From the sequence record PZ019085.1: a stretch of DNA of 64,000 nucleotides; one strand, given 5' to 3'. A program made the translations under genes and the position numbers. The notes beneath the pieces are model-generated. The model was not told the DNA's origin. It did not search any database and was given only the letters and a program-made list of their open reading frames with translations. The DNA is from a phage. Positions 21,553 to 37,025 of this stretch are shown here, one piece after another (the first letter of the stretch is position 1; each line of letters opens with the position of its first letter).

Positions 21553-21783
21553 ATGTCTACTGAAACTATCGAAAAACTGCAGTCTGAAATCGTTACTCTG
21601 AAATCTCGCATTCTTGATACTCAAGACCAAGCAGCTGCTATTCAGCAAGAATCTCAGCAACTTGGTAGTGCTCTTGCTAAAATCGCTAATCTGGTTGGTA
21701 TCACTGGCGAATCAGTTAAGATTGATGACCTGGTAGAAGCAGTACGTGAACTTGTTAAAGCTGAAACCACAGAAGAAGAATAA
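21553..21783 (+). CDS. 57A: tail fibre assembly chaperone (T4 gp57A-like)
   Basis: 76 aa [29 protein letters not shown]...; T4 57A-like. Confidence 0.8.
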
Positions 21784-22238
21784 TGAAATTTGAGGACTTT
21801 TCACAAGGCCTCTACGTCGCAGCTAAGTTTTCAGAATTAACACTTGATGCGCTGGAAGACCTCCAGCGTAAATTAAGAATTCCTAATCCAGTACCACGTG
21901 AAAAGCTTCATTCAACAATTTGTTATTCACGTGTAAACATACCGTATACTACGTCTAGTGGTAGTTATTCTATTGCCGAATCAGGACACTTTGAGGTATG
22001 GAAAACTGACGACGGCGCTGTACTGGTTTTAGTTCTTGATTCCGAATATCTTAGATGTCGTCATCAGTATGCACGAGCTTTAGGTGCTACTCATGATTTC
22101 GACGACTACACTCCACATATAACGTTATCATATAACGTTGGCCAACTATCATTCAGTGGTGATGTAGCTATTCCGGTTATTCTCGACCGTGAATACAAAG
22201 AACCCTTAAAACTAGATTGGGCCGAAGATCTAAAATAA
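21783..22238 (+). CDS. 57B: 57B-position protein (T4 57B = Acb1 anti-CBASS phosphodiesterase)
   Basis: 151-aa ORF directly after 57A; size and position of T4 57B; sequence identity not independently verified. Confidence 0.7.
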
Positions 22239-22251
22239 TTTTCACAAAACG

Positions 22252-22290
22252 GTTTACATAAGGATGATGGTGTGTTACTATCATCCTATC
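22252..22290 (+). promoter_or_regulatory. early promoter with inverted repeat (PeSL-like cassette)
   Basis: GTTTAC -35-like hexamer then inverted repeat GGATGATGG...CTATCATCC around a -10-like TACTAT; upstream of the ipI-like gene. Confidence 0.5.
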
Positions 22291-22315
22291 AAATAAACAG
22301 CCTCAAGGAAATAAA

Positions 22316-22603
22316 ATGAAAACCTATAAAGAATTTATATCACCTGTTGCTAACGTTTCTACTCTGACCGAAGCAACCCTTACTTCTGAAGTTATTAAAA
22401 CAAATAAAGGACGTGAGGGTAAACCAATGATTAGTCTGGTTGACGGTGAAGAAGTAAAAGGTACTGTTTACTTAGGGGATGGATGGTCTGCTAAGAAAGA
22501 CGGCGCTACTATTGTTATCTCTCCGGCTGAAGAGACTGCATTGTTTAAAGCTAAGCATATTTCTGTAGCTCAGCTTAAAATTATTGCAAAAACTCTTCTG
22601 TAA
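22316..22603 (+). CDS. ipI: internal protein I-like (capsid targeting sequence protein)
   Basis: 95 aa starting MKTYKEFISPV, the T4 capsid-targeting-sequence motif (MKTYQEFIAE); ipI position next to 57B; length equals T4 IPI precursor. Confidence 0.7.
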   Translation: MKTYKEFISPVANVSTLTEATLTSEVIKTNKGREGKPMISLVDGEEVKGTVYLGDGWSAKKDGATIVISPAEETALFKAKHISVAQLKIIAKTLL

Positions 22604-22606
22604 GTA

Positions 22607-22645
22607 GTTTACAACACGATAGGACTATGTTATAGTAGTCCTATC
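22607..22645 (+). promoter_or_regulatory. early promoter with inverted repeat (PeSL-like cassette)
   Basis: GTTTAC then palindrome ATAGGACTAT-GTTA-TAGTAGTCCTAT then CAAATCAAATGAG; near-identical copies at 29368 and 30663. Confidence 0.55.
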
Positions 22646-22673
22646 AAATCAAATGAGTAAATGGAGAAATAAA

Positions 22674-22859
22674 ATGAAACGCGCTGAACTGATTCGTAAT
22701 GTTGCTGTAGTAATTGCTTCAATGGCTTTTAGTTTTTCGATGTTTGTAGGATTCATTTGTGGACTACTGACAACAACAGAAAATTCTATCTCATTGGTAG
22801 TAGCATTTCTAATCGGCTTAATCGCTATCGTTATGGATAAAATTGCAAAAGGTGAGTAA
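22674..22859 (+). CDS. small membrane protein, hypothetical
   Basis: 61 aa from ATG 22674 (SD GGAGAAA); hydrophobic core VAVVIASMAFSFSMFVGFICGLL; alternative start at 22653. Confidence 0.55.
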   Translation: MKRAELIRNVAVVIASMAFSFSMFVGFICGLLTTTENSISLVVAFLIGLIAIVMDKIAKGE

Positions 22860-22860
22860 A

Positions 22861-34459: not shown

Positions 34460-34489
34460 TACTCTATCAAAACAAACAAGGAAACAAAA

Positions 34490-34804
34490 ATGAAAACGTA
34501 TAAAGAATTTATTGCAGAATCCGCCAACCAACGCGTTGAAGGTGGTTATATTTGGATTGAACAAGTTGAGCCGCCGAGCCGCACTTCTACAGGTAAATGG
34601 AAAATTACTGTTGATGGTCCTGGCGGTAAACGTAGGACTCTTAAAGAAATTAACGGGTACTATGAAGAAGCTCTTTCGGATGCAGGAACTTACATGATGC
34701 AAATCATGATTAAAAACCCTGAAAACCGTTTTGCAGCTAAAGTCTTCCGCCGTATTGGTAATAAACTTTATGATGCATACTCTAAAAACTTCCCTAAAGA
34801 ATAA
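34490..34804 (+). CDS. internal protein-like (capsid targeting sequence protein)
   Basis: 104 aa MKTYKEFIAESANQRVEGG...; CTS motif. Confidence 0.65.
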   Translation: MKTYKEFIAESANQRVEGGYIWIEQVEPPSRTSTGKWKITVDGPGGKRRTLKEINGYYEEALSDAGTYMMQIMIKNPENRFAAKVFRRIGNKLYDAYSKNFPKE

Positions 34805-34829
34805 CATAAATTAAAACAATAGGAACAAA

Positions 34830-35159
34830 ATGAAAACATATCAAGAGTTTATCACTGAAGTTACATTATCTGCGGAACAGAAAGCTGCTATCGAAGAAGG
34901 TAAAAATCCCAAAGTAACATATAAAGTAAATAGTAAAGGCGTTTTTGATGACTTGGTTCAAGACCCTGAATTGAAAAAGGCTCTTTCTAAAACTAATGCG
35001 TACTTTGCTCCTAAATTTAACACAGCCGGTGTACTTATTGGATTGGATGTATTCAACTCTAAAGGTGTTCTATCTAATGCCTTTGGTTATGCCGCTAACA
35101 AAATTACCAAAGCCGCATGGGAATCCAATACTAAACAAGCTCAAAAGCCTAGAGTATAA
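34830..35159 (+). CDS. internal protein-like (capsid targeting sequence protein)
   Basis: 109 aa MKTYQEFITEVTLSAEQ...; CTS motif. Confidence 0.65.
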   Translation: MKTYQEFITEVTLSAEQKAAIEEGKNPKVTYKVNSKGVFDDLVQDPELKKALSKTNAYFAPKFNTAGVLIGLDVFNSKGVLSNAFGYAANKITKAAWESNTKQAQKPRV

Positions 35160-35331
35160 TTCTTGCCTAATAAAGGGAAACGCAACCTCTCCTTATGAAC
35201 GTCGAGTCCTCTGAGTGATGTACCTTTTCCAACCTGTAATAAGGTCGAGCGCAATGCGGTAATGGGTTTACATAGCGAGTCGAAGGACATAACATGTGCC
35301 ACGGAATGGCCCAAACCTTAAGAGAAATAAT

Positions 35332-35871
35332 ATGAGAACATTTTTAACTGGTCCTTATCTATCCCTGATGAATGCTTTTACACACCATTCTGATGCTAGA
35401 GTAGAAGAAATTTGTAAGAACGGTTATGCCCCACCATTTGAAGACGTACTCAAGCAGTACTGTACACTTCGTTTAGACGGCGGCAGACAATCAGGTAAAT
35501 CGACCGCAGTAACTAATTTTGCTGTTAATTGGCTGTATGACGGTGGAACAGTTATTGTTCTTTCTAATACTTCAGCTTATTCTAAAATTTCTGCTGGCAA
35601 TATTAAAAAAGAATTTTCTCGTTATTCTAGCGATGATATTCGATTCCGTTTATTTACTGATTCTGTCCGTAGTTTTATTGGCAATGAAGCTTCTAAATTC
35701 CGTGGATTAACGCTTTCTCGTATTCTGTATATAATTGACGAGCCTATTAAAGCTCCTGATATGGATAAGATTTACAACATACATATTAAAACAGTCCAAC
35801 ACTGTTGCAAAAGCAAATATTGCATCGGCGGTATTGCTCGTCCTCAATTTTTTGTGATTGGAATGCAATGA
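35332..35871 (+). CDS. P-loop NTPase, hypothetical
   Basis: 179 aa from ATG 35332; Walker A GGRQSGKST and Walker B-like ILYIIDEP. Confidence 0.6.
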   Translation: MRTFLTGPYLSLMNAFTHHSDARVEEICKNGYAPPFEDVLKQYCTLRLDGGRQSGKSTAVTNFAVNWLYDGGTVIVLSNTSAYSKISAGNIKKEFSRYSSDDIRFRLFTDSVRSFIGNEASKFRGLTLSRILYIIDEPIKAPDMDKIYNIHIKTVQHCCKSKYCIGGIARPQFFVIGMQ

Positions 35872-36176
35872 TGACCACTATTGAAGTTTTTGAATATTGT
35901 TATAATAGCCAAGTATGCAATAAAAGGGCCCTTGTAGAAAATTACGAGATTTACCATTTTAAACCTAAACGATATCGTTTGACTAAAGGTCCGTTCGCAG
36001 GGCAGCAGGTTCTTTGTACTGCTCCTAATGCACGGTTGATGACTAGTATTCCGCATTTCAAAATGGAATTTATTGATGGACCATTTAAGGGATTAATCAC
36101 TCAAAGTTTAATGGCGTTTAATTCCGACCCATTTTTGATTAAAGAAAAAACTTGGATAAATTTATTTTCTAATTGA
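35868..36176 (+). CDS. hypothetical protein
   Basis: 102 aa from ATG 35868 (ATGA overlap with upstream stop). Confidence 0.55.
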   Translation: MMTTIEVFEYCYNSQVCNKRALVENYEIYHFKPKRYRLTKGPFAGQQVLCTAPNARLMTSIPHFKMEFIDGPFKGLITQSLMAFNSDPFLIKEKTWINLFSN

Positions 36177-36182
36177 GGTTAT

Positions 36183-36545
36183 ATGAAAGCATATCAAATT
36201 CTTGAAGGTGCACATAAAGGCACTATTTATTTTGAAGACGGTACTCAAGCTCGGATTATCGTCTCTAAGACTTTTAAAGAAGACGCTATTGTAGACCCGG
36301 AAATTTTCTACGGTTTGAATGCCCGTGAAATTGAAATTGAACATCAACCTAAAGTTAAAATTGAAGGTGGTCAACATCTGAACGTTAACGTTCTGCGTCG
36401 CGAAACTCTGGAAGATGCAGTTAAGCATCCTGAAAAATATCCGCAGCTGACCATCCGCGTATCCGGTTATGCAGTTCGCTTTAACTCTCTGACTCCGGAA
36501 CAGCAGCGCGACGTTATCGCTCGTACCTTTACTGAGAGTCTATAA
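36183..36545 (+). CDS. autonomous glycyl radical cofactor (GrcA/YfiD-like; T4 Y06I equivalent)
   Basis: 120 aa; C-terminal 65 aa [59 protein letters not shown] carry the RVSGYAVRF glycyl-radical motif and match E. coli GrcA as recalled. Confidence 0.85.
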
Positions 36546-36769
36546 TGGCTAAATTGATTATAGAAGGGTCTGATGATGTTTTAAAATGTTTTGCCGCCTG
36601 GTTTAGTTGCTCAGGCGAGCAATCATTCGTTGAAGCATTTAGAACGGGTGATATTACTGGAAAATATCCGTCAACCGATATCACTGTACGCGGATATGGT
36701 ATTAATGAGCCTATCCAATTGGTCGAATATGACCTTGCCACCGATGAGGAAATTCCTTATGTCGATTGA
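36545..36769 (+). CDS. hypothetical protein
   Basis: 74-aa ORF. Confidence 0.55.
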   Translation: MAKLIIEGSDDVLKCFAAWFSCSGEQSFVEAFRTGDITGKYPSTDITVRGYGINEPIQLVEYDLATDEEIPYVD

Positions 36770-37025
36770 AGACATCAAAGGCTACAAGCCGCATACCGAT
36801 GATAAAATCAGTAAAGTGAACGCTATTAAAGATGCAGAAGTCCGTCTTGGATTGATGTTTGATGCTCTGATTGAAGAAGCATATATCTTGAAAGAAAACG
36901 AAACAGAGCAACAAACCAAAGAAGATATGGATGCAGTGCAGGCTCTTAAGTATGCTAAGCAACACCTAAAAGAAGCCAGCATGTGGGCATGTCGTGCAGT
37001 ATTTCGACCTGAGGAAAAATACTAA
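36759..37025 (+). CDS. hypothetical helical protein (T4 vs.4 / Acb2 position)
   Basis: 88 aa from ATG 36759; second ORF upstream of regB, the relative position of T4 vs.4 (Acb2); assignment positional only. Confidence 0.5.
   Translation: MSIEDIKGYKPHTDDKISKVNAIKDAEVRLGLMFDALIEEAYILKENETEQQTKEDMDAVQALKYAKQHLKEASMWACRAVFRPEEKY

What the first reader, a model, noticed from the sequence alone, without database searches (positions are those of the whole stretch)
21783..37025. Anti-CBASS gene positions: 57B (Acb1) present, and a candidate Acb2 at the vs.4 position
T4 57B encodes Acb1, a nuclease that degrades CBASS cyclic nucleotide signals, and T4 vs.4 encodes the Acb2 sponge. Here a 151-aa ORF occupies the 57B slot (21783-22238) and an 88-aa helical ORF (36759-37025) is the second gene upstream of regB, matching the vs.4 position. 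Assignments are positional; I cannot verify sequence identity from memory.
Basis: inference. Interest (0 to 1): 0.4.

Follow-up and report, generated by a model that had tools for sequence, protein, structure and literature searches.

The report
Known anti-CBASS genes Acb1 and Acb2
The two genes are ordinary, intact copies of Acb1 and Acb2, the T4-type phage proteins that destroy or soak up the bacterial CBASS alarm nucleotides, in an RB69-like phage where the literature already names them.

Summary
Both positional guesses are correct, and both are already known.

- **The phage:** the window comes from an RB69/MM02-like Mosigvirus, about 96-98% nucleotide identity to deposited phages.
- **Acb1 (21783-22238, +, 151 aa):** this is the 57B orthologue. 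It is 85% identical to T4 57B and 99% to MM02 gp156. It scores 196.8 bits against Pfam Acb1 (cut-off 27) and E=8e-59 against the Acb1 crystal structure 7T26. All nine published catalytic and substrate-contact residues are kept.
- **Acb2 (36759-37025, +, 88 aa):** this is the Vs.4 orthologue. It is 64% identical to T4 Vs.4, 99% to RB69 vs.4 and 98% to MM02 gp117. It scores E=1e-29 against the Vs.4-cGAMP structure 7UQ2. All published cGAMP-contact and hexamer-interface residues are kept. It sits exactly two genes upstream of regB.
- **Prior record:** a 2025 Nature paper names MM02 gp156 and gp117 as Acb1 and Acb2. Copies 100% identical to each window protein exist in deposited phages.
- **The 15-kb span:** the two genes are unlinked. 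Roughly 45 unrelated genes lie between them, so the span is not one feature.
- **The one open point:** the middle third of Acb2 is almost unrelated to T4's (22% amino-acid identity, against 89-95% in the flanks). In the Pseudomonas homologue this stretch lines a second, cyclic-trinucleotide pocket, and the ligand range of this variant there is untested.

Interest is low.

The parts
21783..22238 (+). acb1 (57B orthologue): 151-aa 2H-phosphoesterase that cleaves CBASS cyclic oligonucleotides
   Evidence: 85% identity to T4 57B over the full length. 99% to MM02 gp156. PDB 7T26 Acb1 E=7.9e-59. Pfam PF23474 Acb1 196.8 bits. HxT/HxT tetrad H43/T45/H112/T114, stacking residues Y11/W73/F106/W146 and E140 are all conserved (residue roles from PMC9117128).
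36759..37025 (+). acb2 (vs.4 orthologue): 88-aa helical-hairpin cyclic-dinucleotide sponge
   Evidence: 64% identity to T4 Vs.4, 99% to RB69 vs.4, 98% to MM02 gp117. PDB 7UQ2 Vs.4 E=1e-29. Pfam PF24729 64.6 bits. PHROG 717, the family used to define Vs.4 homologues. cGAMP contacts Y9/H12/K24/S74/R79/F82 and interface residues L30/F34/A66/A73/A77 are conserved. AlphaFold2 model is a helical hairpin whose best Foldseek match is 7UQ2.
21553..21783 (+). 57A (tail-fibre chaperone): positional anchor only, not part of the anti-CBASS function
   Evidence: Lies between gene 1 and acb1, as in T4 and MM02. Annotated as tail fibre chaperone/assembly protein in matching phages.
37025..37240 (+). vs.3-like ORF between acb2 and regB: positional anchor only
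   Evidence: 40% identity to T4 vs.3. PHROG 2037, unknown function.
37302..37760 (+). regB endoribonuclease: positional anchor only
   Evidence: Pfam REGB_T4 230.7 bits. PHROG 1323 endoribonuclease.

Best explanation
The window comes from an RB69/MM02-like Mosigvirus and carries the same two independent anti-CBASS genes as T4.

Gene 21783-22238 encodes Acb1, a metal-independent 2H phosphoesterase. By inference from T4 and FBB1 Acb1, it captures CBASS signals that contain at least one adenosine (3'3'-cGAMP, cUA, cAAA, cAAG) in a U-shaped pocket. It closes a C-terminal lid over them and uses an HxT/HxT tetrad to cut the 3'-5' bond 3' of adenosine through a cyclic-phosphate intermediate. The signal is linearised, so the CBASS effector is never activated.

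Gene 36759-37025 encodes Acb2 (Vs.4), a helical-hairpin protein. By inference from T4 Vs.4, it forms a hexamer with three dimer-interface pockets. Each pocket sequesters one cyclic dinucleotide with nanomolar affinity, by tyrosine/phenylalanine stacking and lysine/arginine/histidine contacts.

The two genes are about 14.5 kb apart, in different gene clusters, and are not co-located as one system.

What is shown here: gene presence, orthology, synteny, conservation of every published functional residue, and the helical fold. What is inferred: the enzymatic and binding activities, and the effect on CBASS.
For: Phage identity: 96-98% nucleotide identity to Mosigvirus genomes, including RB69.

Acb1:
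- 85% identity to T4 57B and 99% to MM02 gp156.
- 7T26 E=7.9e-59; Pfam Acb1 196.8 bits against 27.
- T4 residues Y12, H44, T46, W74, F107, H113, T115, E141 and W147 are all identical in the window protein. Their roles are given in PMC9117128.

Acb2:
- 64% identity to T4 Vs.4 and 98% to MM02 gp117.
- 7UQ2 E=1e-29; Pfam PF24729 64.6 bits; PHROG 717.
- T4 residues Y8, H11, T12, K23, L29, F33, A66, A73, S74, A77, R79 and F82 are all identical. Their roles are given in PMC10097602.
- The ligand-contact and most interface positions are invariant in 10 T4-like homologues, nearly all recorded as Straboviridae, from 7 or more genera.
- A profile of these also reaches Pseudomonas PaMx33 Acb2 structures 8H2J/8IXZ (E=0.005), with Y11 and K26 aligned to window Y9 and K24.
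- AlphaFold2 helical hairpin, with 7UQ2 as best Foldseek match.

Synteny is identical to T4, RB69 and MM02.

Literature: MM02 gp156 and gp117 are named Acb1 and Acb2. MM02 is restricted 10^3-10^4-fold by Panoptes, a system triggered by active Acb proteins (PMC12657230).
Against: No biochemical or genetic test has been done on this allele, or, as far as the papers read show, on any Mosigvirus allele individually. The knock-downs and mutants were of T4 and N4 proteins.

The central third of Acb2 (T4 residues 37-69) is only 22% identical in protein and 37.5% in DNA to T4.

Position 68, where T68M is reported to lower T4 Acb2 affinity, is Q here. That column is variable (T/Q/E/D) among homologues.

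Several natural T-even phages carry defective acb1 or acb2 alleles, so function cannot be assumed from presence alone. Here, however, both ORFs are intact.
Confidence: 0.93

Rival explanations
1. The 57B-slot protein is a generic 2H-family RNA ligase or RNA-repair enzyme (LigT-like), as many database records label it, and not a dedicated anti-CBASS nuclease.
For: RefSeq T4 annotates 57B as 'RNA ligase'. PHROG 755 is described as 'RNA ligase'. Several phage records use the same name. The 2H fold is shared with LigT-type enzymes (established knowledge).
Against: [quoted passage not shown] The window protein is 85% identical to it, with every substrate-stacking and catalytic residue kept. It matches the dedicated Pfam Acb1 model end to end. 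The 'RNA ligase' label is a fold-based annotation, not a tested activity.
Confidence: 0.04
2. The Mosigvirus-type Acb2 is a sponge with a different ligand range from T4 Acb2. Its replaced central segment could create or reshape the second, trimer-interface pocket. That could gain cyclic-trinucleotide binding, bind another signal, or tune affinity for decoy nucleotides.
For: The centre (T4 residues 37-69) is 22% identical in protein, against 89% and 95% in the flanks, and is near random at DNA level. It is hypervariable with indels across T4-like genera.

The positions equivalent to the PaMx33 cA3 pocket R67/A70/I71/T74 are Q61/K64/Y65/Q68 here, against D61/T64/I65/T68 in T4.

All five T4 residues proposed to clash with cA3 (Y37, A57, L60, D61, T64) differ here (I38, M57, V60, Q61, K64).

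Acb2 homologues are known to differ in ligand spectrum.
Against: Neither R67 nor T74 of PaMx33 is present. In T4, restoring the arginine (D61R) did not give cA3 binding, because helix geometry also matters. Nothing here shows that a pocket exists, and a monomer model cannot address it. MM02, with a 98% identical Acb2, is still restricted by Panoptes, so there is no sign of escape from the decoy.
Confidence: 0.15
3. One or both genes are decayed or inactive alleles, as in T2, Bas35, Bas43 or G2540, retained only by synteny.
For: Natural loss-of-function alleles of acb1 and acb2 are documented in T4-like phages, probably under selection from Panoptes-type decoy systems.
Against: Both ORFs are full length with no frameshift or premature stop. 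All published functional residues are intact. 100% identical proteins recur in independent phage isolates, consistent with purifying selection.
Confidence: 0.04

Closest known systems
T4 Acb1 (gene 57B, NP_049750.1) and Erwinia phage FBB1 Acb1 (PDB 7T26/7T27)
   Same: Same length (151 against 152 aa). 85% identity to T4 Acb1. Same genomic slot after 57A. Same HxT/HxT tetrad, aromatic stacking residues, adenine-reading glutamate and C-terminal lid sequence.
   Different: 23 substitutions relative to T4, none at a described functional position. One fewer N-terminal Met. Activity not measured for this allele.
T4 Vs.4 / Acb2 (NP_049728.1, PDB 7UQ2)
   Same: Same length (88 aa). Same slot (vs.5 - vs.4 - vs.3 - regB). 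N-terminal 36 residues 89% identical and C-terminal 19 residues 95% identical. All cGAMP-contact and hexamer-interface residues identical. Helical-hairpin fold.
   Different: The central 33 residues are 22% identical with a 1-residue indel. Position 68 is Q rather than T, and 61 is Q rather than D. The gene overlaps vs.5 by 11 nt, where T4 has a 36-nt gap.
Mosigvirus MM02 gp156 (Acb1) and gp117 (Acb2); RB69 vs.4
   Same: 99%, 98% and 99% identity respectively, with identical gene order. Named Acb1 and Acb2 in PMC12657230.
   Different: One or two conservative substitutions (I64V in Acb1; S18G and M33L in Acb2).
Pseudomonas phage PaMx33 Acb2 (PDB 8H2J, 8IXZ)
   Same: Same family (a profile built from the T4-like homologues reaches it at E=0.005). 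The dinucleotide-pocket residues Y11 and K26 align with window Y9 and K24.
   Different: Only distantly related (T4 Acb2 is 24% identical to it). The cyclic-trinucleotide pocket residues R67 and T74 are not conserved (Q61, Q68), so cA3 binding is not expected.

Membership tests
Acb1 (anti-CBASS 2H phosphoesterase, Pfam PF23474) | Full-length sequence match to the family model above the curated threshold | tested here: met
   196.8 bits against a cut-off of 27, covering profile positions 1-144 of 144. 7T26 E=7.9e-59. 85% identity to T4 Acb1.
Acb1 (anti-CBASS 2H phosphoesterase, Pfam PF23474) | HxT/HxT catalytic tetrad (T4 H44, T46, H113, T115) | tested here: met
   Window H43, T45, H112 and T114 are identical. 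Role from PMC9117128.
Acb1 (anti-CBASS 2H phosphoesterase, Pfam PF23474) | Nucleobase-stacking aromatics (Y12, W74, F107, W147), adenine-N6 contact E141, and the C-terminal lid | tested here: met
   Window Y11, W73, F106, W146 and E140 are identical. The C-terminal LDWAEDLK matches T4 LDWADDLK.
Acb1 (anti-CBASS 2H phosphoesterase, Pfam PF23474) | Metal-independent cleavage of 3'3'-cGAMP/cUA/cAAA but not cGG | not testable with these tools
   Needs a TLC or HPLC assay with recombinant protein.
Acb2 / Vs.4 (cyclic-nucleotide sponge, Pfam PF24729, PHROG 717) | Sequence match to the family model above the curated threshold | tested here: met
   PF24729 64.6 bits against 27. PHROG 717 E=1.6e-27. 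7UQ2 E=1e-29.
Acb2 / Vs.4 (cyclic-nucleotide sponge, Pfam PF24729, PHROG 717) | Cyclic-dinucleotide pocket residues (T4 Y8, H11, K23, S74, R79, F82; equivalent to PaMx33 Y11, K26) | tested here: met
   Window Y9, H12, K24, S74, R79 and F82 are identical, and invariant in 10 homologues. Alignment to PaMx33.
Acb2 / Vs.4 (cyclic-nucleotide sponge, Pfam PF24729, PHROG 717) | Helical-hairpin monomer fold | tested here: met
   AlphaFold2 single-sequence model, pLDDT 81, helices 15-47 and 55-82. Best Foldseek match is 7UQ2, TM 0.70, probability 1.00.
Acb2 / Vs.4 (cyclic-nucleotide sponge, Pfam PF24729, PHROG 717) | Interlocked hexamer binding three dinucleotides | not testable with these tools
   The interface residues L29, F33, A66, A73 and A77 of T4 are conserved. 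Assembly itself needs AUC, SEC or crystallography.
Acb2 subclass that also binds cyclic trinucleotides (PaMx33/JBD67 type) | R67 and T74 (PaMx33 numbering) in the trimer-interface pocket | tested here: not met
   The equivalent window residues are Q61 and Q68. T4, which keeps only the Thr, does not bind cA3. The window protein is therefore not filed in this subclass.

The most novel reading that the evidence does not exclude
The Mosigvirus-type Acb2 carries a replaced, hypervariable central segment. Window residues about 38-69 include Q61/K64/Y65/Q68 at the positions of the PaMx33 cyclic-trinucleotide pocket. This segment could give the sponge a ligand range different from T4 Acb2, such as a second binding site for trinucleotides or another immune signal, or altered affinity for Panoptes decoy nucleotides. 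The centre of Acb2 would then be a specificity cassette that evolves in an arms race while the dinucleotide pocket stays fixed.
Probability: 0.12. Interest if true: 0.45.

Novelty: already known. Interest (0 to 1): 0.1.

Why it matters
It matters little beyond correct annotation. Most deposited records still label these genes 'hypothetical protein' or 'RNA ligase', so naming them Acb1 and Acb2 is a useful correction.

Carrying both genes predicts two things by inference from T4. The phage should resist most cGAMP-, cUA- and cA3-signalling CBASS systems. It should also be vulnerable to decoy-nucleotide systems such as Panoptes, which fire when Acb proteins deplete their signal. This is relevant when choosing phages for therapy cocktails against E. 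coli strains with known defence repertoires.

The only small research lead is the divergent centre of Acb2.

Tried and rejected
- **Promoter and terminator scans** around both genes gave counts no higher than shuffled controls. No claim about transcription units or timing is made.
A single-sequence model was used instead. It is adequate for secondary structure but not for pocket geometry.
- **Second copies:** a search for further copies or diverged paralogues of either gene in the 64-kb window found none (tblastn).
- **Rfam** on the whole window found only the two tRNAs.
- **One locus?** I considered whether the 15-kb span is one anti-defence locus and rejected it. The intervening genes are the usual T4-like ipI / tRNA / e.x / nudE / e / denV / ip / vs.8-vs.5 block.
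- **Large searches skipped:** the metagenome-scale protein searches were deliberately not run, because the answer was already unambiguous.
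Full report
**What the window is.** The sequence is a T4-like myovirus of the RB69 group (genus Mosigvirus). The 57B region matches 181 phage records at 95-99% identity. The vs.4/regB region matches RB69 itself at 98.1%. A 25-kb stretch around the finding is 96-97% identical to several Mosigvirus genomes. G+C content is 35-41% throughout.

- ORF 21783-22238 (+, 151 aa) starts with an ATG that overlaps the last base of the preceding ORF's stop codon. It follows gene 1 (dNMP kinase) and 57A, and precedes an internal protein I gene (Pfam IPI_T4). This is the order 1-57A-57B-ipI annotated in T4 and MM02.
- ORF 36759-37025 (+, 88 aa) is the ATG-initiated part of a longer mechanical ORF (TTG at 36591). 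The ATG has a GAGGA about 8 nt upstream, and it is the start annotated in RB69 and MM02.
- Downstream come a 71-aa vs.3 homologue (40% identity to T4 vs.3) and regB (Pfam REGB_T4, 230.7 bits). Upstream lie vs.5 and the glycyl-radical cofactor vs.6.
- The ORF is therefore the second gene upstream of regB, as claimed. It is also helical: the AlphaFold2 model has two helices, 15-47 and 55-82, at mean pLDDT 81.

**Acb1.**

- The 151-aa protein is 85% identical (92% similar, no gaps) to T4 57B.
- It is 99% identical to MM02 gp156 and 100% identical to proteins encoded in phages phiEC1 and ECO26.1 3-1.
- It matches the solved Acb1 of Erwinia phage FBB1 (7T26/7T27) at E=7.9e-59.
- It matches the Pfam Acb1 model end to end at 196.8 bits, against a gathering score of 27.
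- Hobbs et al. [quoted passage not shown] They define the mechanism as a 2H-phosphoesterase fold with stacking by Y12, W74, F107 and W147, adenine N6 read by E141, and an HxT/HxT tetrad (H44, T46, H113, T115) acting through a cyclic-phosphate intermediate.
- In the T4 sequence those numbers carry exactly those residues, and all nine are identical in the window protein, shifted by one position.
- The 'RNA ligase' label in RefSeq and PHROG 755 is a fold-based name, not a competing experimental result.

**Acb2.**

- The 88-aa protein is 64% identical to T4 Vs.4, 99% to RB69 vs.4 and 98% to MM02 gp117. It is 100% identical to a protein of phage NRG-P0074.
- It matches the Vs.4-cGAMP crystal structure 7UQ2 at E=1e-29 and Pfam Acb2_Tad1_hairpin at 64.6 bits against 27.
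- It also matches PHROG 717, the family Jenson et al. used to collect Vs.4 homologues.
- Jenson et al. (PMC10097602) report a hexamer binding three cGAMP molecules (Kd about 30 nM). The contacts come from Y8/F82 (stacking) and Y8, H11, K23, R79. Loss of function follows mutation of Y8, F82, of the interface residues L29, A66, A73, A77 (and F33), and from T12I and S74N.
- Every one of these residues is identical in the window protein.
- In an alignment with nine other T4-like homologues, including T4 and RB69 and nearly all recorded as Straboviridae from Escherichia, Klebsiella, Cronobacter and Citrobacter phages, the N-terminal block D5-G31 is largely invariant and the C-terminal block L70-Y88 nearly completely so.
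- A profile of that alignment also reaches the Pseudomonas PaMx33 Acb2 structures (8H2J, 8IXZ; E=0.005), with PaMx33 Y11 and K26 aligned to window Y9 and K24.
- The AlphaFold2 model's best Foldseek match is 7UQ2 (TM 0.70), followed weakly by PaMx33 Acb2.

[quoted passage not shown] It also reports that MM02 is restricted 10^3-10^4-fold by Panoptes. MM02 is Mosigvirus mar005p1, and its locus tags 00156 and 00117 are the genes compared above. The finding is therefore a correct re-identification of known genes in a known phage group.

**How it most likely works.** Shown here: intact orthologues in conserved positions, with all functional residues kept. Inferred from the T4, FBB1 and PaMx33 work:

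- Acb1 linearises adenosine-containing CBASS signals.
- Acb2 hexamers sequester cyclic dinucleotides.
- Together they keep CBASS effectors silent. [quoted passage not shown]
- The same activities make such phages detectable by decoy-nucleotide systems.
- The two genes are about 14.5 kb apart and separated by the usual T4-like block (ipI, tRNAs, e.x genes, nudE, e, denV, internal proteins, vs.8-vs.5). They are not one locus.
- No second copy of either gene is in the window.

**The one point that is not fully ordinary.** Against T4, the Acb2 sequence falls into three parts:

| T4 residues | Protein identity | DNA identity |
|---|---|---|
| 1-36 | 89% | 79% |
| 37-69 | 22% | 37.5% |
| 70-88 | 95% | 88% |

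. The centre is also the indel-rich, hypervariable part across genera. In PaMx33 Acb2 this segment lines a second pocket that binds cyclic trinucleotides through R67, A70, I71 and T74. T4 has D61/T64/I65/T68 there and does not bind cA3, and D61R does not rescue binding. The window protein has Q61/K64/Y65/Q68. It also differs at all five T4 residues proposed to clash with cA3.

Since both key PaMx33 residues are absent, the default expectation is no trinucleotide binding. That expectation is untested for this variant. A T68M change is reported to weaken T4 Acb2. The window has Q68, but that column varies freely (T/Q/E/D) among homologues.

**Verdict.** The novelty class is 'already known' and the interest is low.

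Noticed in passing
window 36870-36965 (Acb2 residues ~38-69): The middle third of Acb2 is almost unrelated to T4's (22% amino-acid and 37.5% nucleotide identity), while both flanks are 79-88% identical at DNA level. The same stretch is indel-rich across T4-like genera. It covers the positions that form the cyclic-trinucleotide pocket in PaMx33 Acb2.
   Followed up: partly
window 22316-22603, 33391-33687, 34166-34426, 34490-34804, 34830-35159 (and more loosely 25004-25630): Five or six + strand ORFs begin with the T4 internal-protein leader MK(T/M)Y(K/Q/S)EF(I/L). That is more than the three internal-protein genes (ipI, ipII, ipIII) annotated in the same region of T4. Only the first matches a Pfam family (IPI_T4, the nuclease inhibitor). 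The others have no Pfam match.
   Followed up: partly
window 28569-28874, 28884-29156, 29166-29363: Three tandem small ORFs (101, 90 and 65 aa) share a C-terminal motif G-x-W-V-x-S-S-x-x-C. Two fall in PHROG 899 and one in PHROG 4882, all of unknown function. They look like a locally duplicated family.
   Followed up: partly
window 28213-28572, 30721-31026, 31714-32205: Three small predicted membrane proteins end in a shared motif (..ENFIKECRK, ..ENFIKECRGK, ..ERFITECRNLR), although they belong to different PHROGs (2330, 9798, 2203). Function unknown.
   Followed up: partly
window 24110-24264: Only two tRNA genes (Met-CAT and Arg-TCT) occupy the slot where T4 has eight tRNAs, segB and the small RNAs rnaC and rnaD. 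Rfam finds nothing else. MM02 has the same two tRNAs.
   Followed up: yes
window 29694-30650: A 318-aa protein made of DUF7277 + DUF7275 (PHROG 2141), strongly conserved but of unknown function, lies in the e.x gene block.
   Followed up: no
window 36183-36545: A vs.6 orthologue lies two genes upstream of acb2, with vs.5 between. It carries a glycyl-radical domain (RVSGYAVRF motif, Pfam Gly_radical) and is an autonomous glycyl-radical cofactor of the GrcA/YfiD type.
   Followed up: partly
window 22262-22286: A perfect 7-bp stem hairpin, extendable by G-U pairs (GGATGATGGTGTGTTACTATCATCC), sits in the 77-nt gap between acb1 and ipI. The terminator scan did not report it (no T run follows). It may be an RNA processing or stability element.
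   Followed up: no
window 36545-36769: The vs.5 homologue shares only its first 18 residues with T4 vs.5 (72% identity), then diverges. Its last 11 nt overlap the start of acb2, whereas T4 has a 36-nt gap there.
   Followed up: partly
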